A program made the translations under genes and the position numbers. This document shows positions 10,939 through 33,800 of a stretch of DNA of 64,000 nucleotides, piece by piece. The stretch lies in assembly GCF_009914755.1 (NCBI RefSeq), contig NC_060930.1; one strand, given 5' to 3'. A model generated the notes under the pieces. The model was not told the origin of the DNA, ran no database searches, and saw only the letters and a program-made list of their open reading frames with translations. Position 1 is the first letter of the stretch, and each line of letters opens with the position of its first letter. The DNA comes from the human T2T-CHM13v2.0 reference genome, Homo sapiens.

Positions 10939-11480
10939 TGAGGTAGCGCTCCTTTCGCGGTGGCACTAGTGGCGGGGAGTCTGTCCCTTGCAGACCCCTA
11001 ACCTGGCGACGGATGAATAAACGTACACTGACACACAGATATTCTGTTTTGCCAGTCCTGCTGAGTGTCCGACCACCTACACACCAAAAGATGTTTGTCA
11101 CTGCTGGCCGGGCCCGTTCAGCTGGTACTCCAGGCATTTATTTAGTACAGAATTAACAAGAGAAGCTTTGGGTAAACACACTTGAGGATAATTAACATGG
11201 TTAAGAGAGTAGTACTACAAATGATTAAAGCTCAGGTACCGCGGTCTAAAGTAAATACCATTAGGGGGCAAGTAAGACTTAACTGGGGAAGCCTTTATTG
11301 TCTCTAGTATTTACCCTATGACCTAATGCTCTAGGGTAAGAACAGGCCTCCTTCAGCCTGTTCAATTATTATAAGCTATCTAACCTTTCAGCCTTCCAAA
11401 AAGATTTGTGACTATTCCCTATATCTTCCCCTAATATTTCTCTTCAATATTTCTGCCACCATCCTGAGTGAATCCCAACA
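10939..11480 (-). mobile_element. Solo LTR of the LTR22 family (HERV-K22/HML-5), 542 bp, with 6-bp TSD AGAGGA
   Basis: Minus strand starts TGTTGGGATTCACTCAGGATGGTGGCAGAAATATT and ends ...GAAAGGAGCGCTACCTCA (TG...CA termini). AATAAA lies on the minus strand at 11137-11142. AGAGGA is at 10933-10938 and 11481-11486. Confidence 0.88.
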
Positions 11481-14400
11481 AGAGGATGACATTACTTTCA
11501 ACATCTCAGGGGGTTTACACACCCCCTGTGATACTGTTCTCAATTTCCAGTGAAGGAGAGGATAATATTACTTTCAATTTCACAGGGGGTGTACACACCC
11601 CTGTAATACCGTTTCTAAAATCCAGGGAAAGGAGAAGATAACATTACTCCCAATATCGCAATGGCGGTGTACCCCCATCTTTTGATATTGTTTTTAATAT
11701 CCTGGGAAAGAAAATAATATTAATCTCAATATCTCAGAGGGTGTACACTCCCCCTGTGATATTGTTTCTAATATCCAGGAGAGGAGAGGATGATATTACT
11801 CCCAATATCGCAGGGCTTGTACATCCTACTGTGATATTGTTTTTAATATCCAGTTTTGGGAGAGAAGGATATTCCTTGCAATATTGCATGGAGTGTACAA
11901 ACCACTGTGATATTCTTCCTAATATATGGGGGGGAGAAAATGATATCACTCTCTATATCTCAGGGGGTTTATAACCCCCTGTGATATTGTTCCTAATATC
12001 AAGGGGGGAAATAAATGTTGTCACTCCCAATATCACAGAAAGTGTACACCCCTTTGGTGATACTGTTTCAATATCTAGTGGGAAAAAAGGATGGCTTTAT
12101 TTCCAATATCGCAGGGAATGTACACTCCTACTGTGATATTGTTCCTAATATCCAGAAGAGAGGAGGGTGATATAACTCCCAATATCGCAGGAAGTGTACA
12201 CCCTTCCTGTGATACTCTTCCTAATATTCGGAGGGGAAGAAGATGATCTTACTCCCAATATCATGGGGGATGTACACCCCTTGTGATATTGTTCATAATA
12301 TCCAGGGGGAATAATGATGATACTACTTTCAATATCGCAGAAAGTGTACACCCAACCTTTGATATTGTTTCTAATATCCAGGATGGGAGAGGATGACATT
12401 ATTCTCGTTATCGCAGAAACTGTACACACCCCCTGTGATATTGCTCCTAATATCCAGGGAGAGAGAGGATGACATTACTCCCAATGCCTCAAGCACTGTA
12501 CTCCCCCTTGTGATGTTGTTTTTAATATCGGGGGGTGGGGACAGGATGATATTACTCCCAACATCGCAGACTGGGTACACCCCGCTGTGATATTGTTCCT
12601 TATATCCAGGCGGGGAGAAGATGATATTACTCCCAATTTCTCAGGAAGTGTACACCCCCTTGTAATATTGTTCCTAATATCCAGAGAGGAAGAGGATGAT
12701 ATTGTTCCAAATATTGCAAAGGGTGTACACCCTTCTTGTAATATTGTTTCTAAAATCCAGGAAAGGAGACGATTGTATTACTTTCAATATCGCAGAGAGT
12801 GTACACCTCCCTCTGATATTGTTCCTAATATCCAGGGGGCTGGCAAATAAGATTACTCCCAATATCGCAGGGGCTGTACATCTTCCCTGTGATATTGTGT
12901 CTAATATCCAGGAAGGGAGAAAATGCTATTACTCTCAATATCATTGAGAGTGAGGGAGTGTACACCCTTCTGTGATATTGCTTCTAATACCCAGTTGAGA
13001 AGAGGATGATATTACTCCCAATATCGCAGCAAGTCTACAACGTAGCTGTAATATGGTTTTTAATATTAAAAGGTAGAGAGGATGATATTACTTCCAATAC
13101 CTCAGGGAGTGTACACACCTTCCATAATATTGTTTCTAATACTGTGGCGGAAAGAGGATGACATTACTACCAATATCACATATTGTGATATTGTTCTTAA
13201 TTTCCAGTGAAAGAGGATGATATTACTTTCAATGTCACAGTGGGTTTACACTTTCCTGAGATATTGCTCCTAATACCTGGGGGGGGGAAATAAAATATTA
13301 CTCCTAATATCGCAGGGGCTGTACAACCCCCCCCCCCCCGTGATACTGTTTCTAATATTCAGGGGGGAGAAAATGATGTTACTCTCTATATCACAGGGGG
13401 TGTACACTCCCCCTGTGATATTGTTTCTAATATCCAGGAGAGAAGAGGATAATATTACTCCCAATATCGCAAGGCATGTACGTCCTCCTGTGATACTGTC
13501 TTTAATATCCTGGTTGGGAGAGAATTATATTACTTGCAATATTGCACAGGGTGTATACACCCTCTGAAATATTTCTCCGAATACACAGGGTGGAAGCTGA
13601 TGCTATTACTCAAAATATCTCAGGGAGTTCACACCACTCCCCCACCTTGATATTGTTTCTAATACGAAGGGAGGAAGAGAATTATATTACTTTCAATATC
13701 TGAGGGGGTTTACACCTTCCCAGTGATATTTTTCCTAATACCCACAGGGGGAAGAGGATGATATTACTCCCAACATCACAGTTTGTGTGCAGTCCCTCTG
13801 TGATATTGTTCCTAATATACAGGGAGGGAGGAGAGAATGATATTACTCCCCAAATCGCAGGGGTGTACACCCTCGCTTTGATATTGTTCCTAATATTTAA
13901 TGAGGGAGAGCATAATATTACTCCCAGTATCCCTTGGGGTGTACACTTCCCCTTTGATATTTTTCCTAATATCCAGGGGAGAGAAGATGATATTATTCTC
14001 AATATTGCAAGGGGTGTAGACCTCCCCCAGTGATATTGTTCCTAACATCCCAGTGAAGAAAGGGTGATATTACTTTCACTATCACAGATGGTGTACACCC
14101 TCGCCCCTCCTTGATATTGTTTCTAATATCCAAGTGGAGAGAAAATGATATTAATTCTAATATCAAAGAGGTTGTACAACCCATTTGTGATATTGTTTGT
14201 AATATTCAGAGGAAAAGAGAAAGATATTACTTTCAATTTCGCAGGTGTTGTACACCCTCTCCCCTCCGTGATATATTTTCTAATATTCAGGGGGAAAATA
14301 TGATATTACTCCCAATATAGCAGGGAGTGTAAACTATCCCTGTGATATTGTTCCTAGTATCCAGGGGGAGAGAGGATGCTATCATTCTCAATATCACAGA

Positions 14401-17400
14401 GGGTGTACAACCCCCTTGTTATATTGTTTCTAATATCCAGGGGGGAATAAATGATATCACTCCCAACATCGCAGGGGGTGTACACCCGCTTTGTGATGTT
14501 GTTTCTAATATCCAGGGATAAAGAGGATGGTATTACTTCCAATATCTCAAGGGCTGTACACTCCCCCTGTGATATTGTTCCTAATATCCAGAAGGGAAAA
14601 GGATGGTACTACTCTCAGTATAGCAGGGTGGGTAAACCCTTTCTGTGAAATTGTTCCTAATATTCTTATGGGGGGCGGACGATCTTAGTTCCAATATTGC
14701 AGAAGGTGTACCCTCCCCTTGTAATATTGTTCCTAATATCCACGGTGAGAGAAGATAATATTACTTTCAATATCACAGGGGATTTACCCTCCCCCTGTGA
14801 TATTGTTTCCAATCTCCAATGAAAGAAAGGATCATATTACTTTCAATATCGCGTTGGATCTACACACCCCTGTGATATTGTTCCTAATATCCAGGGAAAA
14901 TAGGATAATATGACTCCCAATATCAGAGGAGCTGTATGCCCACGTTAGAAACTAATATCCATGGGGGTGGGGAGATAACGATATTACTCTCAATTTTGCA
15001 GGAAGTGTACACTCTTCCTGTGATATTGTTTCTGAAATCAAGAAGGGAAGAGGATAATATTACTCCCAATATCACAGGGCGTGTACACCCTCCTGTGATA
15101 TTGTTTTTAATATCCAGGTTGGGAGATAATGATATTGCGTGAGGTGTACACCACCCCCCATGATATTGTTTCTAATATACAGAGAGGGAAATGGTGATAT
15201 TACTCCCAGTATCTCAGGGAGTTTCTCCCACCCCTGTAAGATTGTTCCTAATATAAAGGGAAATAGAGGATGATATTACTTTCAACATCGCACCAATATC
15301 GCATGGGGTGTGATATTGTTCGTAATATCCAGGGAGGGAAAGGTTGATATTACTCCTAATATCGTAAGGGGTGTACCCCACTTCGGTGATATTGTTCCTA
15401 ATATCCAATGGTTAAGAGCCTGCTCTAACTCCCAACATTGCAGAAGTGAACACCCCCCGCCCCCGTGATATTGTTGCTAATATCAAGGAAGGGAAAAAAT
15501 GATGTTACTCCCATATTACAGAGGGTGTTAACCCCTCCTTTGATATTGTTCCCAATATCCAGAAAAGGAGCAGATGATATTACTCCCAATATCGCAGAAG
15601 TTGTACTTTCCTCCTGTGATATAGTTCCTAATATCTAGAAGAGAGAATGATATTACTCCCAATTTTGCAGGTGGTGTACACTAGCTTTGTGACATTGTTT
15701 CTAATATCAAGGGGAAAAGAGGATGATATTAATCGCAATGTAGCAGGGGGTGTACACACCTCCTGTGATAACGTTTCTAATATTCAAGGGAGAAGAGGAT
15801 GATATTACTGTCAATATCACAGACGGTATACGCACCCCTTGTGATATCATTTCTAATATCAAGACGGGGAGAGGATGATATTACTCCCAATATCGCACAG
15901 AGTGTATACCCCCCCGTGAGATTGTTTTTAATATCCAGTGAAAGAGAGGATGATACTACTCCCAATATCGCAGTACGTGTAAACCCTCCTGTGATATTGT
16001 TGTTAATATCCAGGTGGGGAGAGGATGATATTATTCCCAATATCGCAGAAGGTATACATCCTCTTTTGTGATATTGCTTCTAATATCCAGGAGGGGAGAG
16101 GATAATACTACTCTCAATATAGCAGAAGGCATACTCCCACCCTGTGATATTGGTCCTCATATTCAGGGGAGAAGAGTATGATATTACTTTCAATATCACA
16201 GGAATTGTAGATCCCCCCTGTGATATTGTTTTTAATATCCAGGAGATGAGAGTATATTATTACTCTCAATATCGCAGGGAGTGTACACTGCCACTGTGAA
16301 ATTTTTCCAAATATTCAGTGGGGAGAGAGGTTGATATTCCTCCCAATATAGCAACAGGTGTACAACTTTCCTGTGATATTGTTTTTAATATCCGGGGGCG
16401 AGAGGGTGATATGACTCCCAATATCGCAAGGAGTGCACACCCCTCTGTAATATTGTTCCTAATATCCAGACGGAGAGAGGATGATATTACTCCCAATATA
16501 GCAGAAGATTTACACATCAGCTGTGATATTGTTCCTAATTTCCAGTGAAGGACAGTATGATATTACTTTCAATATCACAGGGGCTGTATACCCCTCTGTG
16601 ATATTCCTCGTAATATCCAGGAGGGGAGAGGATAATTTTACCCCTAACCACGCAGAGGCTTTACCCCACTTCCTAGGATATTGTTTCTAATATACATGAG
16701 GAGAGAAAATGATATTACTATAAATATTGCATGTGGTGTACACTCCCCCTGTGATAGTTTCTAATACTTAAGAGCAGAGAGTATAATATCATTCCCAATA
16801 TCATATGGTGTGTACATTCCTCTGTGATGTTTTTTAGTAACGAAGTTGAGAGAAGATGATATTGCCTGCAATATCACACAGGGTGTACAACTCCCCTGTG
16901 ATATTATTCTCAATATACGGGGGGTGGGGGGAGAGTATGATATTATTCCTAAAATCGCGGGGAGTTTACAATACCCAGTGATATTGTTTTTAATAATAAT
17001 GGAGGAAAAGAATGATATTACTTTCAATATGGCAGACTGTGTACACCACCCTATAATATTTTTTCTAATATCCAGAGGAAGAGAGGATGATATTACTTCA
17101 ATATTGCATGGGTTGTACACACTTTCTGTGATATTCTTTCTAATATACAGGATGGGGAGAGGTTGACATTACTTCCAATATTGCAGGGTGTTTACACGCG
17201 CCCTGTGATATTGCTTTTAATACAAAAGGAGGAAGAGGATTATATTACTATCAGTATCGCAGTGTTGTACACTTTCCCAGTGATATTTTTCCTAATATTA
17301 AGGCGGGAAGATAGTGATTTTACTCCCAATATCGCAGAGTGTGCACCCTCCCTCTGTGATATTGTTCCTAATACACAGGGGGGAGGAGAGAATAATATGA

Positions 17401-20400
17401 CTCCCAATATCACACGGGGTGTACACCCTCCCTGTGATATTTTTCCTCAAATTTAGTTGGGGGAGAGGATATTACTCTTAATATCCCATGGGTTGTACAA
17501 CCCCCTTTGAAACAGTTTTAATATCCAAGGGAAAAAGAGGATGATATTTTTCTCACTATCGCTGGGAGTGTACAACTTCCTGTGTTACTGTGTCTAATAT
17601 TTAGGTTGGGAGAAATTAATGTAACTCCCAATATAGAAGGGAGTGTACACTCTTCCCGGTGATTTTGTTGCTAATATCCAAGGGCGGAGAGGATGATATT
17701 ACTTCCACTATAGCAGGGGTATACACCCCCCCACCCGATGATATTGTTTCTAATATCCAGGCGGATAGAAAATGATGTTACTCCCAATATCGTAGGGGGT
17801 GTACACTGCCCCGTGATATTGTTCCTAATATTAACGGGGGAAGAGGATGATATTACAACCCCTGTGATACAACTTTTAATATCCAGCAGGGGAGAGAACG
17901 ATATGAATCCCAATATAGCAAGGGGTGTGCACCCCCTCCATTTGTAATATTGTTTCTAATATTTAGGAAGGGAGAGGATGATATCACTCCCAAAATCGTA
18001 GGGGGAGTACACCCGCCCCGTGTTACTGTTCCTAATATCCAAGGGGGGAATAAATGATATCATTACCAATATCCTCCCTTGTGATATTGTTTCTAATATC
18101 AAGAAGGAAAGAAGATCATATAACTTCCGATGTGGCAGGGTGTATAAACTCCCACTATGATATTGTTCATAACATCCAGAAGGGAAGAGAATGACATTAC
18201 TCCAAATATCGCAGGGGGTGTACACCCCCCATGATATTTTTCCTAATTTCCAGGGAGGGGGAAAGAAAACATTACTCCCAATATTGCAGGGGTGTACACC
18301 CTCGCTTTGATATTGTGTTAAATATCAAGAGGAGGAGAAAATAATATTACTCCCAATAAGGCAGTAATATAGTTTTAATATCCAGGGGAATACAGGACGA
18401 TATTACTCCCAATATCGCAAAGGGTGTACAACCTTCTTATGATATTGTTCCTAATATCCAGAAGGTAAGAGAATACTACTTCAAATATCACAGGGGGTGT
18501 TCACCCCAACCTGTGTTATTGTTCCAATATCCAGAGAAAAAGAGAGTGATATTACTCCCAATATCTTAGGAGGTGTACAAGCCCACCCCCGTGATATTGT
18601 TTCTAATATCTAGTGGAAGAGAGGATAATATTACTCCCAATATTACACGGGGTGTACACCCACCCTGTAATATTGTTCCTAGTATCCAAGAGAGAAGAGG
18701 ATGATATTACTCCCAATATCGCAGGGGATGTACATCCCTTCTGTGACACTGTTCCTAATATATAGTGAGGGAGAGGATGGTATTACCGTCAGTATCACAG
18801 GGGGGTTACACCCTCCCTTTGATATTGTTTTTAATATCAAGGGATTTCTCCTTGATATTATATTATAGTAGATTATATTACGCTCAATATCGGAGGTGGT
18901 GTACACTACCCCTGAGAGATATTGTTTCTAATATCCAGTGGAGGAAAGTATGATATTACTTCCAAAATTGCAGGGATGTAACCCCCCCTGTGATATTGTT
19001 TCTAATATCCAGGAGGCGAGAGGATGAAATTACTCCCAATATCACAGGGGATGTACACTTTTTATTGTGCTATTGTTTGTAATATTCAGCGGTTTCTAGA
19101 ATAATATTACTCCCAATATCGCAGGGGATGTAAACCCCCTCTGCAATATTGTTTCTAATACCCAGGAGAAAAGAGGATGACATTATCCCTAATATCGCAG
19201 GGGGTGTACACAATCTTTGTAATATTTTCTTAATATGCGGGGGGCGGGGGGGGAGAAAAGGTTTTACTCCCAATACCTCAGAAGATGTACAACTTTCCTG
19301 TAATATTGTTTTAAATATCTAGGGAGGGAGAGGAGATTACTTTCAATATCGCAGGGTGTTTACACGCCCCCAGTGATATTGTTTCTAATATCCAGTGAAG
19401 GAGAGGATGATATGACTTTTAATATCGCAGGTGGTGTACACCCCCTATGACTTTTTTTAATATCCAGGGGGGAGAGGAGAATATTATTCCAAATATCTCA
19501 GAGGCTGTACACTGCCCCTGTAATATTGTTTCTAATATCCAGGTTGGGAGTAAATGACATTACTTTCAATATAGCGGGGGTGTACACTCCAATTTTGATA
19601 TTGTTCCTGATATTCAAGATGGGAGAAAGTAATAATACTTACAATTATGCAGGGCATTTACACACCCCTGAGATATTGTTTTTAATGTCCAGTTTGGAAG
19701 AGGATGCTATTATTGGCAATATCGCACCGGATGTACGCCCCCGCGTGATATTGTTCCAATTATATTGGGGAGGGAGAGGATGACATTACTCCCAATACCG
19801 CAGCACGTGTACAATGTTTTCATGATATTGTTTTTAATATCTAGGAGAGGAGAGGGTGATATTACAATATCGTGTACACCCCTCCTCTTATAATGGTTCT
19901 AATATTCAGAGGGAAAGAGGATAATAATACTTTCAATATGGCAGGGAGTGTACACCCCCCCCATGATATTGTTCCTAATATCAAAGGTTAAGAGGCTGAT
20001 ATTACTCCCAATACCACAGAAGGTAAACACGCCCTTGTCATATTGTTTATAATATCCAGAAAAGGAAAGAATAATATTACTTCAAATATCACAGAAAGTG
20101 TTCAATCTTCTGTAATATTATTCCTAACATCCAGGGAAAGAGGATAATATTACTCCCAATTTCGCAGGGTGTGTACACCCCTCACTCGGATGTTGTTTTT
20201 AATATCTAAGAAGAGAGGATGATATTACTCCCAGTATTGAGGGGGTGTACACACGCCCTGTGATATGGTTCCTAATATCCAGGGGAGAAGAGGATGATAT
20301 TACTCCAAATATCGCAGGGGATGTACACCCTCTGTGAATTTGTTTCTAATATCCAGTGGTAAAGTTGATGATAGTACTCCCAATACTGTACAAGATGTAA

Positions 20401-22129
20401 ACATTTTCTGTGATATTATTCCTTATATTAAGGAAGAGAGACTATCATATGACTTCCAATATCACTCCACCCTGTGATATTGTTCCACATATCCAAAAAA
20501 AAAAAAAAAAGAGGATGATATTACCCCTAATACCGAAGAGGGTGTGCACTTCTTTTGTGACTTTTTTTTCTGTTATCTGGGTAAAAGAAGGAGAATATTA
20601 CCCCCAATATTGCAGAGGTGTACACCTCCCTTATGATACTGTTTCTAATATAAAGGAAATAAGAGGGTGATATTATACTTTATATTGCAGGAAGTGTACA
20701 CTCCCCCTCTGATATTGTTCATAATATCCAGAAAAAAAGAGGTTGATATTATCGCCATTATCGCAAAGGGTGTCCACCCTTCCTGGATATTGTTACTAAT
20801 ATCCAAGAGGACAGAGGATGACATTACTCCCAATATTGCAGAAGGTGTATAATGCCCCTGTGATGTTGTTACTAACATACAAAATAAAAGAGGATGATAG
20901 TACTCTTAAAATTGCAGGAAGTGTACATCACCCCTGTGATATTGTTCCCAATGTCGATGAATAAAGAGAATGACATAACTCTCAATATCGCAGGGGGTGT
21001 ACACAAGCCCTCTGATATTGTTTCTAATATTTATAAAGGAAGAAGATGATATTACCCCCAATATCGCAAGGGATGTACACCCTTCTGTAATATTTTTCCT
21101 AATATCCAGGGTGGAAAAGGATGATATTACACCCAATATCTCAAAGAGTGTACACCCTTCCTGTGATACGGTTTCTAATACCCACGGGGGGGGGGAGAAT
21201 AATATTATGACCCATATCGCAGGGGGTGTACACCCCTCCTGTGATATTGTTTTTAATATCCGGGGGGTAGAAGATATTACCCCCAATATCGCAGGCGGTA
21301 TACACACCCACAATTATATTTTTCGTAATATCCAGAGGAGAGACGATGGTATTACTCCCAATGTCGCAGAGGGTGTACAACCCCATGTTATATTGTTGTT
21401 AGCATCCTGGGAAGAAGAGGATGTTACTACTCTTAATATCACAGAGGAAGGGCACGCTCCCTCTGATATAGTTTGTAATAACAAGGAGAGAGGATGATAT
21501 TACTCCCAATGTTGCAGAGGGTGTACATCCCCACTGTGACGCTGTTCGTAATATTCAGGGAGGGAGAGGATTATATTACTCCAAATACTGCAGAAGGTTT
21601 ACAACCCCCGGGGATATTGTTTCTAAATTCCAGGAGGAAAGAGGTGGTCATTACGCCCAATATCACAGAAGAGGAAACACCACCCCAGTGATATTGTTCT
21701 GAATATCTATTAAGGGGGAGAATGATATTACTCCCAATGTGACACAAACTGTGCACTACCTTTCTGATATTGTTCCTAATATCCATGAAGAATGAGTCAG
21801 GGTATTACTTTCAATATTGCAAGGGATGTACACCCCAGCTGTGATATTCTTTCTAATATTCAGGAGAAAAACACGATAAAAATGCAAATATAAAAGGGGG
21901 TGTAAAACCCACTGTGATATTGTTCCTAATATAAAGAAAATAAAAGTATGAAATTATTCCCCAAATGGCAGGAAGACTACAACCCCAAGTGATATTGTTC
22001 GTAAAATCCAGAAAAGGAGACATTACTTCCAATATCATAAAAATCCTGAGTGTCCACCACAGTGCGATATTATCGTAATATCCAGAGGAGATAATAATCC
22101 TTCCAATATAAAAATCCGGTGTGTCCACC

Positions 22130-23398
22130 CCCGGTGATATGATTCCCAGATGGTTCGTAAGAGACGGGGAGAAGAGAGGGAGCGCTCTTACTCCCCATAT
22201 AGAGAGGGTGTCCACCCCCGGCATATGGTTCGTAAGAGCCAGAAGAAGAGAGAGGGGTGCTCTTACTCCCAGTACCATATGATTCTTAAGAGCCAGGAGG
22301 TGAGAGGGGGGTGCTCTTACTTCCCATAAAGCGGGGTGTCTCCACCCCCCACCTCATGGATCGTAGAGCCAGGTGGGGATGGGGGGTGCTCTTAATCCCC
22401 ATATGAAGGGGGGCATCCACCCCCCTGCCATATGGATGATAACAGCTGGGGCGGGGAGAGGGGGTTGCTCTTACTGCCCATATGGCGGGGAGTGTCCACC
22501 CCCTGCCAAATGGATCTTAAGAGCCAGGGAGGGGGAGAGAGGGGTGCTCTTACTCCTCATATGGTGGGGGGTGCCCACCCACCAACCCGCCACATGGATC
22601 CTAAGAGCCACGTGGGGAGAGGAGGATGCTCTTACTCCCCATATGGCGGGGGGTGTCCACCTTCCCTGCCACACAAATCGTAAGTGCCGCAGCAGGGGAG
22701 AGGGGGGTGCTCTTACTCCCCATATGGTGGGGGGTGTCCACACCCCCTGCCACATGGATTGTAAGAGCCGGGGGTAGAGGGGGGGACTCTTATTCCTTCT
22801 ATGGCTGGGGGTGTCCAGCCCCCTGCCATACGGTTCGTAAGTGCCAGTGGGGGAGAGGAGATGCTTTCTCCCCTTATGGCGTGGGATGTCCACCCCCTTG
22901 CCATTCGGTTTGTTAGAGCCAGTGGGGAAGAAGGTAGTGCTCTTACTCCCAATATGGTGGGAGGTGTCCACCCCTCTGCCATCGTTCGTAAGAGCCAGTG
23001 TGGGGAGAGGGAGTCTCTTACTCCCCATATGGCTGGGGGTGTCCACCCCTTTGCCATTTGGTTCATAAGAGCCAGGAGGGAGAAGGGGGTGCTCTTACTT
23101 CCCAAATGGGGAAGGGTGTCCACCCCCCTGCCGTATGGTGCGTAAGAGCCGGTGGGGGAGAGGGGGTGCTTCTATCGCGGAGGATGTCCACCCACCTGCC
23201 ATTAGGTTAGTAGGAGCCAGGGGTGAAGGGCGGTGCTCTTACTCCCCATAAGGTGTGTGGTTATACCCCTTTGCCATTCAGTTCATATTAGCCAGAGGGG
23301 GTTGCTGTTTCTCCTCATATGGCGGGGGCTGTCTTCCCCCCTGCTGTATGGCTGCTAAGAACCAGCGGGGGAGAGGGGTTGCTCTTACTCCCCTCCAT
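22130..23398 (+). repeat. GC-rich satellite monomer variant (~17 units; GCTCTTACTCCCCATATGGCGGGGGGTGTCCACCCCCCTGCCATATGGTTCGTAAGAGCC plus G-tract)
   Basis: Same period and architecture as the main monomer, with systematic substitutions and many G4-G7 runs. Confidence 0.9.
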
Positions 23399-26300
23399 AT
23401 GGGGAGTGATATGAAGAATAATATCACTCTTTTCCCCAAAAAATATTACAAACCATGTTACAGGGACGTGTATGCCCCCCGCCATATTGGGAGATATATC
23501 ACCCTTTCTGTCCCAGTATATTACAAACCATATCACAGGAAGGTGAACTCCCTCGGCAATATGGGGAGTAATGTCACCCCCTACTCCCCAGGATATTACA
23601 AACCATATCACAGGGTGGTGTACGCCCTCCACGATATGAGAAATAATATCACCCTCTCTTCTCCACAAGGGAGTGCATGCCCCTTACGACTTTTGAAGTA
23701 AAATTATCCACTTCCCCCAGAATATTACAAACCATATCACAGGGGGTTTGTGCCCTCCCCGATATGGGGAATAATATTGCCCTCTCTTTCCCAAGATATC
23801 ACGAACCACGGCCCAGGGGTGTCTACGCCTTGCACAATAAGGAAATTAATATCACCCTTTCCCCCCCAAAAAAATTACAAACTATGTCACAGAGAAGTGT
23901 ATGCTCTTTGCGATATGGGGTGTAGTGTCATCCTCTCCCTTCTTGGAAATTATGAACCACAGGGTGTGTACGCCCCACGATGGCTAGAGTAATATCACCC
24001 TCTCCCCCATGGAATATTACAAACCATATTACAGGGGGGTGTATGGTCTAGCCGATCTGGGTAGTAATATCACCCTCTCCCCCCGAAGATATTACGAACC
24101 ACATCACAGGTATGTTTACACTCCCGCGATAAGGAAAGTAATATTCCCTTCTCCCCACCGGGATATTACCGACCATATCACAGAGGGGTGTACGTCCCCC
24201 CACCCCGCAATATTGGGAGTAACATCAGCTTCTCTTTCCCAAGGTACTATGAACCATATCATAGAGGGTTATACGTCCCTAGCGATATCAGGAGTAATAT
24301 CTCCCTCTCCCTCCTGGAATATTACAAACCGTATCACAGGGTAGTGTATACCCCAAGCGAGATGGAAAATAATATTACCCTCTCCCACACGAAATATTAC
24401 AATCCAAATCACAAGGTGGTGTACTTTCTTGCAATATGGAAAGTAACATTACCCTCCCCTACTCGGAATATTATGAACCATATTACAGGCGGGTGTACGT
24501 CCCAACCACGAAATGGGGAGTAATATCACCCTCTCCACCCGAGACATCAGGAAGCATATCACAGGTCTCGTGATATAGGGAGTAATATTACCCTGTTTCC
24601 CCCTGGATATTATGAACAATATCACAGGGGGGTGTACAACCCCCCAATATGGGAAGTAATATCACCCTCTCTATTCCTGGATATTACAAATCATATCAAA
24701 GGTGGGTTTACATCCCCCCAAATATGGGGAGTAATACCCTCTTCCCACTGAATGTTATGAACAATATAACAGGGGTTGTACACCTCCCACCATATGAGGT
24801 GTAATATCACCCTCTATTCCTTGAGATATGACGAACCATATCACAGGGGAGTGTATGCCCTTTGCTATATGGGGAGTAATATAATCCTTTCCCCTTCAGA
24901 ATATTAAGAACCATATCACAGAAGGGTGTACGCCCTCCGCTATATATGGGGAGCAAGATCACCCTCTCTTCCCTGGGATATTACAAACCATATTACAGAG
25001 AGATGTAGCCCCCTGGCGATATGTGGAGTAATATCACCATCTCCTCTACAGGATATTGCAAACCATATCATGGGGGGGGGGTGTACGTTCCCCGCGATAT
25101 GGAAAGTATTATCATCCTCTCTCCCCCTCCATATTATTAACCATATCACAGGGTGGTGTAAAACCTCCACGATATGGGGAGTGATATCACCCTCTCCCCC
25201 CCCCAGAATATTATGAACCATATAACGAGGGGGGGTATGCCCTCCACGATATGGTGAATAATATCACCCACTCCCCCCCACCCGCCCGGGATATTTCAAA
25301 CCATGTCACAGGGGGGTGTACAACCAACACAATAAGGAAAGTAGTATTACCCTGTTTCCCCCAAAATATTATGAACCAGGTCACATAGGGGTGTACGCTC
25401 CCCACAATTTAGGGAGTAATGCCACCCTCTCCCTTCCAGGAAATAATGAACCATGTCACAGTGGGGTGTAAGCTTCCGTGGTATGGAGAGTAATATCACC
25501 CTTTCTTCCCCGGGATATTAGGAACCATATCACAAGGGGGTGTACGCTCCCCGCGGTATAAGAAGTCATATCCTCCTCTCCCCACCAGGATATTACAGAC
25601 CATATCACAGAGGGGTGTACACCCCCGTGGTATAAGAAGTAATATCACCCTCTCCCCCTGGGGATATTATGAACCATATAACAAGGGAGTGTACGCCCCC
25701 CCCCACCCCGCGATGTGGGGAGTAATATCAACTTCTTTTTCCCAAGATATTATGAACCGTATCACAGGGGGGTGTACGCCTACCACGATATGGGGAGTAA
25801 TATCACCCTCTCTCCCCTGAAATATTACGAATCATATACAAGGGGTTTACGCCCCTCACTATATGGAGAGCAATATCACCCTCTCCCACCCGGAATATTA
25901 CAAACCATATCACAGGGGATGTACACTCCATGCGATATGAGGAGTAATATCACCCTGTGATATTATGAATTATATCACAGAGGGGTGTATGCCCCTCACG
26001 ATATGGAGAGTAATATCAGCCTCTCAAACCTGGAAGATTACGAACTATATCACACTTTCGCGATATAGGGAGTAATACTACCCTCTACCCGCCCCCCCGG
26101 ATATTACAAACCATATCATGAGAGTGGGGTGTCTTCACTACGTGACATGGAGAGTAGTATCACCCTCTCCCTCCTGTATATTATGAACCATATCACAGGG
26201 GGATATAGGCTTCCTGCGATATGGGAAGTAATATCTCCCTCTAGCCTTCTGGATATTACAAACTGTATCACAGGGGGTGTACACTCCCCTCGATGTGGGG

Positions 26301-29300
26301 GGTAATATCACCCACTTCTCCCTTCCTAGCTATTATGAACCATATCCCAGGGAGGTGTACACGCCCCAGGATATTGAAAATAATATCACCCTCTTCTCCC
26401 CCCTGGGTGTAACAAACCATATCACAGAAGGGTGACCACCACTCGCGACATGGGGAGTAACATCACCCTTGTTTTTCCCGCTAGGAATTACGAACTATAT
26501 CACAGGGGTTTTTATTCCTCCTAGATATAAAAAGTAATATCACCTTCCTCTCCCATCCTGGATATTACAAATCATACCACAAGGGATTGTACAACTCCCG
26601 TGATATTGAAAGCAATATCACCCTCCTCTTGCCCCCTGGATATTATAATCCGTATCACAGGAGGTGTACACCCCCCATGATATAAGGAGTCATATCACAC
26701 TCCTCTCCACCACTAAATGTTAGAAAGAGTATCACAGCTGGGGTGTACACATCCTGCGATATTGGGTGTAATATCCTTTCCCCCCTTGGGTATTAGAAAC
26801 AATAAAACGGGAGAGTGGACATCCCCTGCAATATTGGAAGTAATATCATCGTCTCCCTTCCTGGATATTAGGAACAATATCACAAATAGAGCGTACACCC
26901 TTTGCGATATTGAGAGTAATATCATACTCATTTTTTCTAAATATTAGGAACAATGTCACAGAAGGGGTGCACACCCCCTGCAATGTTGGGAGTGAAATCA
27001 CCCTTTTTTCTCTCTTAAATATTAAAAACAATATCACAAGGGGGTTTTGCACCCTGCGATATTGGGAGTAGTGCGTTGTTCTTCTTCCCTGGATATTAGG
27101 AATAATATCACAGGAGGGGTGCACACTCCCTGCGATATTGGGAATAATGTTATTTTCTCTCTCCATGGATATTTGGAACAATATCACAAGGGTGGTCTAC
27201 ACCCCTGTGATATTGGGTTTAATATCATCCTTTCCTTTTTGGATAGTAAGAAACATATTACAGAGGGGGTGTACATTTCCTGCAATATTGGGAGTAATAT
27301 CATCCTCTCCTCTTTTGTATGTTTTAAACAATAACAAAGGGGGGTGTATACCACTTGCGATATTGGGAGTAATATCATTTTCTCTTCCCTGGACATTAAG
27401 AACAACATCACAGGAAAGTGTACACTCCCTGAAATATTAAGAGTAATATCACACTTTTACTTCTGGATATGATGAACAATATCACAGGGAGGCGTACGGC
27501 CCCTTCGATATTTGGAGTAATATTATCCTATTTTTTCCCTTGATATAACAAACAATATCACAGTGGGGTGTACTCCCTCTGCGATTGCGATATTGCGAGT
27601 AATATCATCTTCTCCCACCCTGGATATTATGAACAATATCACAGAGGGTAGTACAGCCCCAGAGATATTGGGAACGATATCATTCTCTCTCCTCACCCCA
27701 AATATTACAAACAATATCACAGGGGAGTGTATACCCTCTGAGATATTAAGAGTAATATCACCCTCTCCCCTTTGGAATATTACAAAAATATCACATGGAA
27801 ATGTACTCCCCCTTCAATATTGAGTGTAATAGCATCCTTTCCTCTTCTTGATATTACAAACAATATCACAGTGGGGTAAACACATCCTGAGATAGTGGGA
27901 GTAATATTATCCTCTCCCCTCTTGGATATTAGGAACAATATCAAAGGGTAGGTGTACACCCCTTGCGATATTGTGAGTAATATCATCATCTCCCCCTCTT
28001 GAATATTAGGAACAATATTACAAAAATGTGTACACCCTTTGGAATATTGGGAGTAATATCATACTCTTTCCCCCTTAAATATTAAAGACAATATCAGGGA
28101 GGGGTATACACCCTGCGATATTGAAAGTAATATCTTGTTCTTTTTCCCTGGATATTAGGAACAATATCACAAGAGGTGTGTTTGCCTCCTACGATATTGG
28201 GAGTAATATCATTTTCTCTTTCCATGTATATTTCAAACAATATCATAGGGGTTGGTGTACACTCCCTGTGATATTGAGATTAATATTATTCTTTTAGAAC
28301 AATATTCCAGGGGGTGCACACTTCCTGAGATACTGAGAGTAATATCATCTTCTCCTCTTTTAGTTATTTTGAACAATATTAAAGGGGGGTGTACACCCCC
28401 TGCGATATTGAAAGTGATATCATTTTCTCTTTCTTGGTTCTTACACACAACATCAGAAGGGAGTGTACACTCCCTGGGATATTGGGAGTAATATCATCGT
28501 TTTTCCTTCTAGATATTAGGAACAATATCACAGTGCTGTGTACAGCCCCTTCCTTATTTAGAGTAACATTATCCTCTTTTTCCCTGGATATTGCAAACAA
28601 TATCACAGTGGCGTGTACACCCCCTGCGATACTGCGAGAAATATCATCTTCTCCCACCCTTTATATTACAAACAATATCACAGAGGAGGCTACGGCCCCT
28701 GCGATATTGAGAATGATATCATCCTCTACACCCCTAAATATTATGAAAAATATCACAGGGGGGTGTACACACTCTGCGATATTAAGAGTAATATCATTCT
28801 CTCCCCTTCTGGATATTACAAAAAAATCACATGAAGATGTACTCCCCCTTTGATATTGAGAGTAATATCATCCTCTCTACTTCTTGATATTACAAACAAT
28901 ATCACAGGAGGGTGCACACCCACTGCGATTTTGGGAGTCATATCGTCATCTACCCTTGTGGATATTAGGAACAATATCACAGCTAGTGTACACTCTTTGC
29001 GATATTGGGAGTAATATCATCTTGTCCCCTCTTTAGTATTATGAACAATATCACAGGAAGGTGGACACCTCCTGTGATACTTGAAGTAATATCATTCTCT
29101 TCCCCTCTGTATATTATGAACAATATCACAGGGGAATATACACCTTCTGCGATATTAGGAGAAATATCATTCTCTTTTTTTCTGAATATTACAAAAAATA
29201 TCACAGAGGGGTGTACACCCCCTGAGATATTGGGAGTAACATCATCCTCTCCCGTTCTGGATATTACAAACAATATCACAGCAAGGTTAAACTCCTGCGA

Positions 29301-30832
29301 CATTAAGAGTAAAAACATCCTCTCCCCACTCTGAATATTATGAACAATATCACAGGGGGGTGTATGGCCTCTGTGATATTAGGAGTAATATCATCCTCTT
29401 TCCCCCTGGATATTACAAACAACATAACTCGGAGTGTACAACCCTTGCGGTATTTGGAGTAATAATATTCTCTAACACCTAAATATTACGAAAAATATCC
29501 CAAGGTGGTGTACACACTTTGCGATATTGAGAGTAATATCATCTTTTCCCCCAATAGAAATTACAGATAGTATTACACGAGGGGTGTAAACCCCCTATGA
29601 TATTGGCAGTAATATCATCCTCTTATTCTTGAATATTAGGAACAATATTCCCAGGAAGAGTGAACACCTCCTGTGATATTGAAAGAAATATCTTATTTTC
29701 TCTCCCTGAATATGAAAAACAATGTCACAGTGGGTGTACACGCTCTGCGATATTGGGAGTAATAGTCTCTCTCCCCCTTGGTATTAGGAACCATATCACA
29801 GGGGACTGTACTCGCCCTACGATATCCTTTCACCTTTTTGATATTACAACTAATATCACAGAGAGGTGTACTTTTCTTGCAATATGGGGATTAATATCAC
29901 TCTCTCCCCCACGGGATACTATGAATCATATCACAGGTGTATGGAACCTTCTCCGCGATATGGGAGTAATATCACCATCTTTTCCCCAGGATATTACAAA
30001 CCACATCACAGCGGGTGTACTCCCTTTTCAATATGAAGAGTAATGTGACTCTCTCTTATTCAAGGTATTATGAACCATATCACAGAGGGGTGTACGCTCC
30101 CTGAGATATGGGGAATAATATCACTCTCCCCTCCTCTTCTGAATATTACAAACCATGTCACAGAATGGTGTACACCCCTGTTATATGGGGAGTAATATCA
30201 ACATCCTCTCCCCCTCTGGATATTATGAACCATATCACAGGGGGGTGTACGACCCCCGCGATATGAGGAGTAATATTCTCCTCTTCCCCCAGGAATGTTA
30301 TGAAACATATCACAGGGGGTTGTATGCCCCTGCGATTTGGGAAGTAATAACATCTTCTCCTCCTTTTCTGGATATTACCAACCATAACACAGGGGGGCTT
30401 ATGCCCTTCAAGAATGAAAAGTAATGCCATCCTCTTTTTCCCCCTTTGGATATTAGAAACCGTATCACAGGGGTCTTACACCCCCCTGTGATATAGGAAG
30501 TAATATCACCCTACTCTCCCGTCGGATATTAAAAACCATATCACAGGAGGGTGTACGCTTCTGCAATATGGGGAGTATAATCACCGTCCTTTCCTCCTCT
30601 GGATATTATAAACCATATCACAAGGAGTGTGTATCCCCTCCTCGATATGGGGAGTAATATCACCCTCTCCCCCACTGGATATTATGAACTATATCACAGG
30701 AAGGTGGACACCCTCTGCAATATGGAGAATAATAGCACCCTTCTTCCCCCCCTGCATATTATGAACAATATCAAAAGGGGTGTGTACATCACACACCTCA
30801 ACCCCGCTGGATATTAAGAAACATATCACAAG
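23399..30832 (-). repeat. Satellite orientation block 4 (inverted); CCATATCAC variant at ~23.4-26.7 kb and ~29.8-30.8 kb, CAATATCAC variant between
   Basis: Monomers read GATATTACAAACCATATCACAGG...GATATGGGGAGTAATATCACCCTCTC. Confidence 0.9.
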
Positions 30833-33800
30833 AGGTGATATGGTTTGTAGTATCCAGACGGGGAGATGATGATATTACTCTTAATATCGCAAGCGTTGTA
30901 CCACCCACCCCATGATATGGTTCGTAATATCCAGGGGGGAGGCAATGACATTACTCTTGATATCGCAGGGGGTGTACACCCCCCTGTGATATTGTTTGTA
31001 ATATTAAAGATGGGAGAGTATAATATTACTTGCAATATTGCAGGGGGTGTATACCCCCTTGTGATATTGTCTGTAATATCCAGAAGGAAAGAGGATGATA
31101 TTACTCCCAATATCCCAGGGAGTGTACACCTTCATTTGAAGTTGTTTTTAATATGCAGGGTGGGAGAAGATAATATCACTTTCAATATCGCAGGGGCTGT
31201 ACACCCCCTTCTGATATTGTTCATAATATCCATGGAGAAAGAGGACGATATTACTCCCAATATCTTAAACACCCTATGTGTACACCACCCTACTATATCG
31301 CTGGTAATTTCTGGGGGGTGAGGTTGATATTACTCCCAATATCACAGAAGGTACACACCCCGCTGTGATATTGTTCATAATATCCAGGAAAAAAGAAGAT
31401 GATACTACTTCCAATATTGCAGGGCGTGTACACTTCCCTGTGATATTGTTCCTAATATACAAAGAAGGAGACGATATTACTTCCAATATCACAGGCTGTG
31501 TACATCCCCCTGTGATATTGTTCCTAATATCCAGAGGGCGAGAAGATATTACCCCCAATATCACAGGAAGGTATACACAGCCCATGATATGGGGAGTAAT
31601 ATCACCCTTCTCTCCTCTTCTAGATATTACAAACAATTTTTATGGGATATTGTTTCTAATATCCAGGTGTAAAAAAAAATGATATTACTTCCAATATTGC
31701 AGGGGTTGTACACCACTCCAATGACATTATTCCTAATATCCACGGGGGAAGAGGATGATATTATTGCCAATATTGCAGGGGGTGTAAACCCCCCTCTTAT
31801 ATCGTTCTTAATATCTGGGAGGTAGTGGTTGATATTACTCCCAATATCGCAGAAGGGATACAACGCGCCTGTAATATTGTTTCTAATATCCACGGAGAGA
31901 AGGGATATATTTCCCAAAATAGAAAGGAATGTACACCCCTTCTGTTATATTGTTCCTAATATACCGGGCATGAGGAAATGATATTACTCTTAACATCACA
32001 GGGAGTGTACACCCCCACTTTGGTAATGTTCACAGTATCCAGGGGAAGGGAGGATGATATTACTCCCAATATCACAGGGGATGTACATCTTCCCTGTGAT
32101 ATTGTTCCTGATACCCAGGAGGGGAGAGGATGATATTACTGGCAATATCGCAGAAGGTATACAACCCCCCTGTGATATTGTTCCTAATATCCAGATGGAA
32201 AGAGGAAGATATTACTTTCAATATCGCAGGGAGTATACATTCCCCATGTGATGTTGTCTCTAATATCAAAATTTAAGAGGCTGGTATTACTCCCAATACC
32301 ATAGCGAGTGAACAACCCCCATGATATTGTTTCTAATATCCAAAAAGGAAAAGAAGGATATTACTCCAAATGTCTTAGGAAGTGTTTAATTTCCTGTGAC
32401 ATGATTCCTAAAATATTGGAAAAGTGAGAATAATAGTACTCCCAATATCGAAGGGTGTGTACTCCCCCTAATGTCATTTATTTCCTAAAATCTAGGAAGA
32501 GAGAATAATATTGCTTCCAATATTGCAGGAGGTGTACATCCGACTTTTGATATTGTTCCTAATATCAAGGGGGAAAGAGGATGATATTACTTTGAATACC
32601 GCAGAGGATGTACACACCCATTGTGTTTCTAATATCCAGTGAAAGAGGAGATGATATTACTACCAATATCGCAGATGCCATAAATTCCTCTGTGATATTG
32701 TTCCTAATATCCAGGAGGAAAGAGGATGATATTACCACCAATGTTGCTGGGAGTGTACATACTCCCTTGTGATATTGTTTCTACTATCTAGGGAAAGAGA
32801 GGATTATATTATTCTCAATATTGCAGGGGGTTGTAACAGCACCCTGTGATATTTTTCTAACATCCAGGGAGGAAGACAATGATATTACTCCCAATATGGC
32901 TGAGAATGTACACCTGTGATATTGTTCTTAATATCCAGAAGGAAAGAGGATGATATTACTCCCAATATCGCAGGGGGTGTACACGCCCCCTGTGATATTG
33001 TTCCCAATATCCGGGGGATGAGAAGATGATATTACTTCCAATATCTATCCTAGCAGTTGTACAACTTTTCTGTAATATTGCTGTTAACATCAAGGGGGGG
33101 GAGGGTGATATTATTCCCAATATTGCAGGGGGTGCACAACCCCCATGTAATATTGTTTCTAATATTCATGGGGGAATTGGGTGATATTACTTCTAATGTC
33201 ACAGGTGCTGTACGCCCCTCCCCCCCAGATATTGTTTCTAATATTGAGTTATGGAGAAAATGATATTACTCTCAATATCGCAGGAGATGTACATTTTTCC
33301 TGTTATATTGTTTCTAATATCCAGGAAAGGAGAGGATGATATTACTCCCAACATAGAAGGGCATGTACCTCCCCATATGATATTGTTTTTAACATTTATG
33401 TTGGGAGATGATAATATTACTTGCAATATCCCACAAGGCGCACACACACTCTGTGATATTGTTAATATACAGAGAAGGAGAGAATGATATTACTTTTAAT
33501 ATAGCAGGGAATTTAACCTGCCCTGTATAATTTTTTATAATATAAGGGAGGAAGAGAATTATATTTCTTTGAATATCACAGTGGGTGTATAACTTCTTAG
33601 TGATATTATTTTTGATATCTGGGGAGGAGAGGATAATATTACTCTTAATATCACACACTCTCTCTGTGATATTATTCCTAAATTACAGGGAAGAATAAAG
33701 AATGATATTACTCCCAATATCACAGGAGTGTACACCCTCCGTTTAATATTGTTTCTAATATTTAGAAAGAAACGGAATGATATTACTTCCAATATCACAG

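What the first reader, a model, noticed from the sequence alone, without database searches (positions are those of the whole stretch)
22130..23398. Compensatory co-variation keeps a ~58-bp hairpin intact across satellite monomer variants
Seen: the standard monomer folds as GATATTA-ctcc-CAATATCGCAGGGGGTG-ta-CACCCCCTGTGATATTG-ttcc-TAATATC (outer stem, internal loop, long inner stem). In this GC-rich variant both arms changed together: GCTCTTAC pairs with GTAAGAGC and CCATATGGC pairs with GCCATATGG. The central change (TGTACA to TGTCCA) falls in the loop. Intermediate steps exist elsewhere: GATATTAC/GTAATATC and CCATATC/GATATGG (23.4-26.7 kb, 29.8-30.8 kb), and GCTATTAC/GTAATAGC (6.3-6.6 kb). That gives at least four paired substitutions in a stepwise series. 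The alternative short hairpin GATATT-n6-AATATC is not preserved in the variant, so the long stem is the conserved feature. Inference: either the hairpin/cruciform (DNA or RNA) or a dyad protein site is under constraint, or arm-to-arm template switching actively corrects the palindrome during amplification. I do not know of this being described for SATR, but cannot check the literature.
Basis: partly seen in the sequence, partly recalled or inferred. Interest (0 to 1): 0.8.

Follow-up and report, generated by a model that had tools for sequence, protein, structure and literature searches.

The report
Paired arm changes in SATR1 palindrome
A human satellite repeat whose 76-base unit is a near-palindrome has a GC-rich variant in which both halves changed in matching fashion, most likely because one arm was copied onto the other rather than because the hairpin is needed.

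Summary
The core observation holds. Window 1-45.6 kb is a SATR1 array of 613 units of 76 bp, each a quasi-palindrome. The GC-rich block at 22130-23398 differs from the standard consensus at 14 positions. Eight of these form four complementary double substitutions, three more keep or create pairs, and none breaks a stem (P about 6e-4).

One claimed intermediate is wrong. At 6.3-6.6 kb the outer-arm changes are unpaired. That paired form does exist elsewhere, for example on chr13.

Searching the whole genome found 26 related GC-rich blocks on 11 other chromosomes. Five of seven widespread left-arm changes have their exact complement on the right (P about 1e-3). Unpaired and anti-compensatory states also exist.

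Nothing maintains the hairpin in individual copies. Own arms pair no better than swapped arms, private compensated doubles match chance (60 seen, 57 expected), and G.T and A.C mismatches are equally common. Widespread changes run AT to GC at stem and non-stem sites alike.

Best reading (0.45): rare reverse-complement copying between arms, with GC-biased conversion, in the SATR2-like lineage, then spread by amplification. Selection on a dyad site or hairpin is not excluded.

The parts
1..45600 (.). SATR1 satellite array of 76-bp quasi-palindromic monomers. Five orientation blocks: + 1-6650, - 6650-10150, + 10150-23400, - 23400-30820, + 30820-45600.
   Evidence: TRF periods of 75-76 and multiples. 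Wrap-around alignment gave 613 monomers. Orientation map. SATR1 primers from PMC3606032 supplement file 3 match 156 and 51 times, 0 expected.
22130..23398 (+). GC-rich (56% GC) variant block of about 15-17 monomers. Arms are GCTCTTAC/GTAAGAGC and CCATATGGC/GCCATATGG, centre TGTCCA. Probably SATR2-like.
   Evidence: It has 14 consensus differences from the standard type: 12 AT>GC, 2 C<->G, 0 GC>AT.
22700..22775 (+). Best-preserved GC-rich monomer. As single-stranded DNA it folds into the full two-stem hairpin.
   Evidence: MFE -20.4 kcal/mol, ensemble frequency 0.41, z -2.76, 4 of 200 shuffles fold as well.
23401..26700 (-). Intermediate subfamily (41 monomers). Inner pair 21/56 is C:G. Pair 16/61 is C:G in about half. 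Outer arms are of the standard type.
29830..30790 (-). Second patch of the intermediate subfamily (12 monomers).
6090..6620 (+). Variant patch (7 monomers) next to an orientation switch. The outer-arm changes are unpaired (right GTAATAGC with left GATAGTAC). Centre TGTCCA.
23385..23415 (.). Orientation switch + to -. A left arm is followed by its own reverse complement, centred on the self-complementary CCATATGG.
30800..30850 (.). Orientation switch - to +. The reverse complement of a right arm is followed by a right arm, with the G/C core mostly deleted.
6625..6660 (.). Orientation switch + to -. A + linker is followed by the reverse complement of a right arm. The switch lies within or next to the outer-stem element GATATT.
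10125..10150 (.). Orientation switch - to +, inside the outer-stem element GATATTA, which is shared by both orientations.

Best explanation
The 76-bp SATR1 unit is a quasi-palindrome: two nested inverted repeats around TGTACA, with an asymmetric internal loop and a purine-rich linker.

In one old lineage, the GC-rich and probably SATR2-like monomers, single-arm mutations were occasionally copied in reverse complement onto the other arm. Possible routes are short-tract template switching, repair of the mismatch in a folded-back arm pair, or inverted-register conversion. A general GC-biased conversion process acted on the same lineage. The resulting monomers were then amplified into small blocks and carried around the genome with segmental duplications.

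The covariation is therefore a footprint of how the sequence mutates and spreads. It is not evidence of purifying selection on a working hairpin.

Shown: the paired changes, their excess over chance, the lack of any maintenance in present copies, the GC direction at all site classes, and orientation switches lying in the dyad elements.

Inferred: the copying mechanism, its link to GC-biased repair, and the direction standard to GC-rich.
For: 1. GC-rich block against standard consensus: 4 complementary double substitutions, 3 pair-keeping or pair-creating single changes, and 0 stem pairs broken. P = 6.1e-4 and 5e-4.

2. Genome-wide: 26 GC-rich blocks on chr 1, 2, 4, 5, 8, 9, 11, 13, 14, 17 and 18. 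In 25 non-duplicate block consensuses:
- 21/56 is C:G in 25 of 25.
- 10C and 67G occur together in 16 (17 each).
- 12C and 65G occur together in 8 (10 and 9).
- 23C always occurs with 54G (9 of 9).
- 26G and 51C occur together in 5 (6 each).
- 5 of 7 widespread left-arm changes have their exact complement among 8 widespread right-arm changes, binomial P = 1.2e-3.

3. Tool count on 139 monomers:
- 82.8% of cells paired, against 77.7 +/- 0.3 shuffled (0 of 500 shuffles reach it).
- 176 cells changed on both sides, against 82 +/- 7.
- Covariation score 0.254, against 0.06-0.13 with the partners slid.

4. Most compensated pairs are transversion pairs with no wobble route: A:T to C:G at 10/67, 12/65, 21/56 and 24/53, and C:G to G:C at 26/51. 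Copying explains this directly. PMC8794818 (abstract read) shows that template switching can mend stems and produce compensatory changes.

5. No maintenance in present copies and no G.T over A.C asymmetry. This argues against ongoing selection.

6. All 23 widespread changes are AT>GC (18) or GC-neutral (5), never GC>AT. This includes 6 AT>GC against 0 GC>AT at non-stem sites. Stem stability is therefore not needed to explain the GC gain.

7. Reverse-complement joining of arms has happened at these sites. All four orientation switches in the window lie in dyad elements, and two are arm-plus-own-reverse-complement junctions. 13 of 26 GC-rich blocks abut an oppositely oriented SATR monomer within 8 bp, with two recurrent junction types.
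Against: - Single-sided states also exist as amplified block consensuses:
  - 10C without 67G (L025), and 65G/67G without 10C/12C (L036).
  - 12C without 65G (L011 group, L033).
  - G.G at 26/51 (L005) and C.C at 26/51 (L008).
  - 67C giving A.C (L005, L013).
  - An anti-compensatory path A:T to G.T to G.G at 22/55 in 6 blocks.
- Changes came one base pair at a time, through forms such as GCTATTAC/GTAATAGC. No multi-base single event was caught.
- If copying were common, private compensated doubles should be in excess. They are not. The process must therefore have been rare or confined to a past phase, and rare events alone do not easily give 5 or more compensations without some bias in which monomers get amplified.
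- Template switching has no known GC bias.
- Stems make up about two thirds of the monomer, so switches falling in them is weak evidence.
- The looser null on all unique changes gives only P = 0.033.
- The direction of change is unpolarised, because there is no outgroup.
Confidence: 0.45

Rival explanations
1. Selection on a dyad-symmetric element in double-stranded DNA, either a homodimeric protein site or an extruded cruciform. Both half-sites must match, so changes in one arm are followed by selected matching changes in the other.
For: Complementarity is kept across at least 5 pairs, including transversion pairs. Half-site co-evolution would produce this as readily as copying. The pattern follows the long nested hairpin, not the short local inverted repeats (fold). 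The 26/51 swap creates CCATATGGC on both arms, which resembles the core of YY1 sites as I recall it; this was not tested. ZNF141 and ZBTB24 ChIP signal over SATR1 is reported (passages read).
Against: There is no sign of constraint among 506 + 134 present copies. Stem positions are only slightly better conserved than non-stem positions of the same base class: A/T 0.921 against 0.876, P 0.21; G/C 0.724 against 0.670, P 0.047. Mismatched forms were amplified too. Selection on one monomer among hundreds should be very weak. The ape ssDNA preprint reports that cruciform motifs are depleted in its signal (passage read); its SATR figure was not visible to me.
Confidence: 0.2
2. Amplification bias (molecular drive). 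Monomers with more perfect, GC-richer hairpins stall forks or break more often. They are therefore more often duplicated, so founders of new blocks are enriched for paired arms without any benefit to the organism.
For: Compensation is seen only at the level of founders of amplified blocks, never among private changes. Well-kept GC-rich monomers fold more stably (-20.4 and -24.3 kcal/mol) than the best standard one (-17.4). SATR1-SATR2 demarcate segmental-duplication integration and inversion breakpoints at 8p23.1 (PMC5088589 passages).
Against: The largest arrays are of the AT-richer standard type, not the GC-rich type. GC-rich blocks are short, 3-11 monomers. Mismatched founders were amplified as well. 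There is no direct evidence of fragility.
Confidence: 0.15
3. Linkage, recombination mosaics and symmetric mutation only. Arms 8-60 bp apart are inherited together, identical contexts on the two strands mutate in parallel, and the remaining complementarity is luck.
For: Two pairs are explained this way. 29/48 and 27/50 fit CpG decay of an ancestral ATCGCG/CGCGAT in the standard type. 23/54 is a transition pair with an abundant T.G intermediate (12 blocks). All combinations of outer-arm and 26/51 states occur, which shows short-tract exchange between monomers. The shuffle control does not keep relatedness.
Against: Event-level nulls that count each change once still give P of 6e-4 to 1.2e-3. 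Three or four A:T to C:G transversion pairs and one C:G to G:C swap have no known hypermutable context. If the GC-rich state were ancestral, parallel decay would favour C:G to T:A, which is not what is seen. The slid-partner control, which keeps relatedness, scores at most half the observed value.
Confidence: 0.12
4. A structured RNA transcribed from the satellite is under selection for the hairpin.
For: The stems covary and well-kept monomers fold into the hairpin.
Against: No Rfam family matches in the window. G.T and A.C single changes are equally common, 733 against 738. Compensation is mostly by transversion pairs rather than through G.U. There is no maintenance in individual copies. Arrays lie in both orientations.
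Confidence: 0.05

Closest known systems
Template-switch mutations that create or mend hairpin stems (Monttinen and Loytynoja 2022, PMC8794818, abstract read; Loytynoja and Goldman 2017, PMC5453318, search listing only)
   Same: An imperfect inverted repeat becomes or stays complementary through reverse-complement copying. This gives apparent compensatory substitutions, including ones with no wobble route.
   Different: That work concerns RNA genes and unique sequence. Here the substrate is a tandem satellite monomer. The events are seen only as founders of amplified subfamilies. They came one pair at a time, and no single multi-base event was caught.
Dyad symmetries and non-B-form DNA in centromeric satellites (Kasinathan and Henikoff 2018, PMC5889037, abstract start in the search listing only)
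   Same: A satellite monomer with dyad symmetry that is predicted to adopt hairpin or cruciform conformations.
   Different: Those symmetries are under 10 bp and are argued from enrichment. Here the stems are 8 + 17 bp, the array is pericentromeric or interstitial SATR1, and the evidence is covariation between subfamilies.
SATR1 / SATR1v / SATR2 mixed arrays (macaque T2T preprint 10.1101/2025.08.04.668424, passages read; Xiao/DA core duplicon papers PMC5088589 and PMC2700803, passages read)
   Same: GC-rich SATR variants sit next to inverted SATR1 arrays. SATR2 units are about 377 bp in SATR1-SATR2 mixed arrays. Configurations are palindromic. Copies are dispersed with segmental duplications.
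   Different: In the passages I read, none describes the monomer as a quasi-palindrome or reports paired arm substitutions. I could not compare sequences with Dfam consensuses, so the equation GC-rich block = SATR2 is an inference.
Arm-to-arm, GC-biased gene conversion in large palindromes of the Y chromosome (recalled, no call)
   Same: Inverted repeats kept alike by conversion between arms, with drift toward GC.
   Different: Those arms are kilobases to megabases long and conversion is ongoing. Here the arms are 8-25 bp and no ongoing homogenisation is detectable.

Membership tests
SATR1 satellite | Sequence matches the SATR1 consensus | tested here: met
   Primers designed on the SATR1 consensus (PMC3606032, supplement file 3) match the window 156 and 51 times at up to 2 mismatches, with 0 expected. 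The consensus itself (Repbase/Dfam) was not available.
SATR2 satellite (for the GC-rich block) | Units of about 377 bp, about 52% GC, interspersed with SATR1 (macaque preprint) | tested here: inconclusive
   GC-rich blocks at other loci are 229-877 bp long. Five of the 26 are 385-405 bp (5 monomers). Mean GC is 0.53-0.72, and they lie next to SATR1-type monomers. The window block is 1.27 kb. No SATR2 consensus was available to align.
Quasi-palindrome corrected by template switching | An imperfect inverted repeat in cis that can serve as template | tested here: met
   25 of 26 consensus positions pair in both the standard and the GC-rich type. The hairpin is the MFE fold of well-kept monomers.
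Quasi-palindrome corrected by template switching | Changes make or keep the arms complementary | tested here: met
Quasi-palindrome corrected by template switching | Both members of a pair, or several adjacent bases, change in one event | tested here: inconclusive
   Stepwise forms and single-sided forms exist. They may be true intermediates or recombinants. No dated tree was possible.
Structured RNA supported by covariation | Match to a known RNA family, or strand-specific G.U tolerance | tested here: not met
   0 Rfam hits. G.T 733 against A.C 738.
Element under purifying or compensatory selection | Present copies keep pairing better than expected from independent decay of the arms | tested here: not met
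   Own against swapped arms, z 0.05. Private compensated doubles 60 against 57 and 9 against 10.4.
Cruciform-forming satellite (non-B DNA) | Extrusion in supercoiled DNA or in vivo | not testable with these tools
   Only single-strand folding was predicted. Of 10 monomers, 6 had at most 4 of 200 shuffles folding as well, and 4 did not stand out (25-72 of 200).

The most novel reading that the evidence does not exclude
The ability to form the long hairpin or cruciform is itself what is kept when SATR subfamilies are founded. It could act as a selfish aid to amplification and rearrangement, or as a recognised dyad element. SATR1 to SATR2 divergence would then be a covariation-supported DNA secondary structure in a human satellite. 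It would tie a specific fold to the satellite blocks that mark segmental-duplication and inversion breakpoints such as 8p23.1.
Probability: 0.2. Interest if true: 0.8.

Novelty: new variant of a known kind. Interest (0 to 1): 0.55.

Why it matters
Covariation is usually read as proof of a functional structure. Here it appears in a human satellite whose present copies show no constraint at all. That makes it a clean natural case for asking how much apparent compensation a purely mutational process can produce.

The same SATR1-SATR2 blocks flank the Xiao/DA core duplicons and lie at duplication and inversion breakpoints. A hairpin-prone monomer would therefore give a concrete, testable reason for that instability.

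The finding also shows that the GC-rich SATR variant and SATR1 are related unit by unit, and that the variant habitually sits at orientation switches.

Tried and rejected
1. Large recent palindrome across the 23400 switch. Mirror-position monomers are no more alike than others (0.613 against an overall 0.619).

2. Whole-arm fold-back as the source of the paired arms. Rejected because the internal loop stays asymmetric in the GC-rich type (TCC on the left, TTC on the right).

3. Independent formation of two palindromes from diverged half-units. Rejected because the standard and GC-rich types share the same loop asymmetry, linker and polarity.

4. Conversion between the two direct 18-bp sub-repeats. 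Rejected because the direct-register partners (columns 14, 25, 52, 63) are unchanged in the GC-rich consensus. The 6.3-6.6 kb patch does show one direct-register parallel change.

5. Ongoing compensation at the level of single monomers. Three negative tests.

6. CpG decay as a general explanation. It accounts for 29/48 and 27/50 only.

7. Known RNA family: none.

9. A tree-based event count on 76-nt monomers was not attempted. The informative sites are the stem sites themselves, so the tree would be circular.

10. Literature:
- Searches for SATR1 (28 papers) and SATR2 (19 papers).
- 'satellite DNA' + compensatory + 'inverted repeat' + monomer (6 papers).
- 'satellite DNA' + 'dyad symmetry' + cruciform + centromere (11 papers).
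- None gave a title, listed abstract start, or passage I read that describes this hairpin or its covariation. I read passages of 8 SATR papers.
- bioRxiv supplements and figures (for example Figure S17 of the ape ssDNA preprint) could not be seen and may bear on structure formation at SATR.

Full report
**What is there**

Window 1-45.6 kb is one tandem array with period 75-76 bp. It starts about 3.6 kb upstream of the window.

A wrap-around alignment to a monomer consensus derived from the window split it into 613 monomers, of which 583 were usable. The array has five orientation blocks: + to 6650, - to 10150, + to 23400, - to 30820, + to 45600.

Primers published for the SATR1 consensus (PMC3606032, supplement file 3) match 156 and 51 times at up to 2 mismatches, with none expected.

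**Anatomy of the monomer**

In the standard consensus (506 monomers) the parts are:
- columns 9-15 pair with 62-68 (GATATTA/TAATATC);
- an asymmetric internal loop, CTCC against TTCC;
- columns 20-29 pair with 48-57;
- a G run pairs with a C run around TGTACA;
- a purine-rich linker joins units.

25 of 26 scored positions pair.

The unit is also two direct copies of an 18-bp element (columns 9-26 and 51-68).

As single-stranded DNA, a well-kept standard monomer forms the 17-bp inner stem (-17.4 kcal/mol, z -3.9). A well-kept GC-rich monomer forms both stems (-20.4 kcal/mol, ensemble frequency 0.41, z -2.8). Decayed monomers do not stand out. Of 10 monomers folded, 6 had at most 4 of 200 shuffles folding as well.

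**Check of the observation**

The block 22130-23398 is 56% GC, against 37-43% in the bulk of the array. Its consensus (15 monomers) differs from the standard one at 14 columns: 7, 10, 12, 21, 26, 29, 38, 50, 51, 56, 61, 65, 67 and 75.
- Eight of these form four complementary double substitutions: 10/67, 12/65 and 21/56 go A:T to C:G, and 26/51 goes C:G to G:C.
- 29 gives G.T, 50 mends G.T to G:C, and 61 turns C.C into C:G.
- 38 lies in the loop; 7 and 75 lie in the linker.
- No stem pair is broken.

Moving the same changes to random positions of the same base gives 4 or more compensated pairs in 61 of 100,000 trials. It gives 25 or more of 26 paired in 53 of 100,000.

The intermediate type, with 21/56 C:G and standard outer arms, fills 23.4-26.7 kb and 29.8-30.8 kb as claimed. 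On its own its single compensated pair is not significant (P 0.15).

The step claimed at 6.3-6.6 kb is wrong. The three monomers with GTAATAGC carry GATAGTAC on the left, and the single GCTATTAC sits in another monomer.

**Other loci**

The window's genome could be searched. The GC-rich block has 65 matches, including on chr 1, 2, 4, 5, 8, 9, 11, 13, 14, 15, 17 and 18.

From 36 fetched loci I extracted 26 GC-rich blocks of 3-11 monomers. They lie on 11 chromosomes other than chr6; no chr15 block passed the filters. Three blocks are near-identical duplicates on chr9, leaving 25 non-duplicate consensuses when the window block is counted.

Block consensuses show:
- 21/56 C:G in 25 of 25.
- 10C with 67G in 16 blocks.
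- 12C with 65G in 8 blocks.
- T:A to T.G (12 of the 27 rows) to C:G (9 blocks) at 23/54.
- C:G at 24/53 in one block.
- G:C at 26/51 in 5 blocks.

Results against a simple story are equally clear:
- 10C alone (L025).
- 65G and 67G alone (L036).
- 12C alone (L011 group, L033).
- G.G (L005) and C.C (L008) at 26/51.
- A.C at 10/67 (L005, L013).
- A:T to G.T to G.G at 22/55 in six blocks.

Counting each change once, 5 of 7 widespread left-arm changes have their exact complement among 8 widespread right-arm changes (P 1.2e-3). Using all unique changes the figure is 7 of 11 (P 0.033).

The pair-counting tool was run on 139 monomers: 30 of 466 clean standard, 25 of 43 intermediate, 11 window GC-rich and 73 from other loci, with the two chr9 duplicate loci left out. 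It gives:
- 82.8% of cells paired, against 77.7 +/- 0.3 shuffled.
- 176 against 82 +/- 7 cells changed on both sides.
- A covariation score of 0.254, against at most 0.128 with partners slid.
- The two measures that count pairs or types do not exceed the shuffles (18 against 17.9, and 52 against 51.9).

**No maintenance in present copies**

- A monomer's left arm pairs as well with another monomer's right arm as with its own. For the standard type this is 19.94 against 19.94, z 0.05. For the intermediate type z is 1.67 and for the GC-rich type 0.47.
- In 506 standard monomers there are 1472 single-sided changes and 60 complementary doubles at the 16 AT-rich stem pairs, against 57 +/- 6.5 doubles expected (P 0.33-0.37). 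Most of those doubles sit at transition-prone G:C or CpG sites.
- In 134 GC-rich monomers the doubles are 9, against 10.4 expected.
- G.T and A.C single changes are equally common, 733 against 738.
- Stems are barely better conserved than non-stem positions of the same base class.
- No Rfam family matches.

**Direction and composition**

All 23 changes shared by at least 5 of 25 block consensuses are AT>GC (18) or GC-neutral (5). At non-stem sites the count is 6 AT>GC against 0 GC>AT.

29/48 and 27/50 are best read as CpG decay in the standard type from a symmetric ATCGCG/CGCGAT. They should not count as compensation.

**Orientation switches**

In the window:
- Two switches lie in or next to the outer-stem element shared by both orientations (6650, 10140).
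- One is a left arm followed by its own reverse complement, centred on the self-complementary CCATATGG (23400).
- One is the reverse complement of a right arm followed by a right arm (30820).

13 of 26 GC-rich blocks elsewhere abut an oppositely oriented SATR monomer within 8 bp. There are two recurrent junction types: at the dyad centre, and at the linker/outer-stem boundary. Many of these are copies of the same old junctions, so they are few independent events. Stems are two thirds of the unit, so the placement alone is weak evidence.

**Interpretation**

The covariation is real at the level of subfamily founders and absent at the level of copies. I rate the readings as follows.

- **Rare reverse-complement copying between arms, plus a GC-biased conversion process in the same lineage, followed by amplification (0.45).**
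  - For: the transversion-type pairs, the lack of constraint, the GC direction at all site classes, and fossil arm-to-arm junctions.
  - Against: amplified mismatched forms, one-pair-at-a-time steps, and the difficulty of getting five or more compensations from rare events without a bias in what gets amplified.
- **Selection on a dyad site or cruciform (0.2).**
- **An amplification advantage of better hairpins (0.15).**
- **Linkage plus symmetric mutation plus luck (0.12).**
- **A structured RNA (0.05).**

**Relation to the literature**

- The macaque T2T preprint (passages read) describes SATR1, a GC-rich SATR1v, SATR2 units of about 377 bp, inverted SATR1 arrays and palindromic configurations.
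- Hoyt et al. list a new SATR1 variant (passage).
- SATR1-SATR2 flank the Xiao/DA core duplicon, and breakpoints at 8p23.1 map in SATR2 (passages).
- Five of the 26 GC-rich blocks are 385-405 bp, so they are probably what is annotated as SATR2. I could not test this against a consensus.
- Template switching as a source of compensatory stem changes is published (PMC8794818, abstract). Dyad symmetries in satellites are published too (PMC5889037, listing).
- None of the searches turned up the SATR hairpin or its covariation.

Noticed in passing
window 10942-11480: About 540 bp of non-satellite sequence interrupts the SATR1 array. I did not identify it.
   Followed up: no
window 6287-6560: In three monomers both outer arms changed ATAT to ATAG (T13>G and T67>G). 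This is a parallel change in direct register, not inverted register, and it leaves two mismatches in the outer stem.
   Followed up: partly
L004, L016, L019, L024, L036 (junction at the dyad centre); L011, L012, L017, L018, L033 (junction at the linker/outer stem): GC-rich blocks of about 4-6 monomers sit directly against oppositely oriented SATR1 on chr2, 4, 5, 9, 11 and 13. There are two recurrent junction types, presumably spread with the Xiao/DA segmental duplications.
   Followed up: partly
L016, L019, L022, L024:1244, L034, L036, columns 22/55: An anti-compensatory path. A:T became G.T (seen in L024:3561, L025, L033) and then G.G.
   Followed up: partly
window 9-26 and 51-68 of each monomer: The monomer contains two direct copies of an 18-bp element that is itself a short inverted repeat. 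This suggests an origin from a roughly 38-bp unit.
   Followed up: no
L040 (chr6 upstream flank) position about 2430: The array begins about 3.6 kb before the window, so it is about 49 kb in all. Only 5% of the window is soft-masked in the hub's table, although 45.6 kb of it is satellite.
   Followed up: partly
window 23433-26700: In the intermediate subfamily, column 61 alternates between G and A in neighbouring monomers (C:G in 20 and C.A in 13 of 41). This is consistent with the 150-bp dimer period reported by TRF.
   Followed up: no
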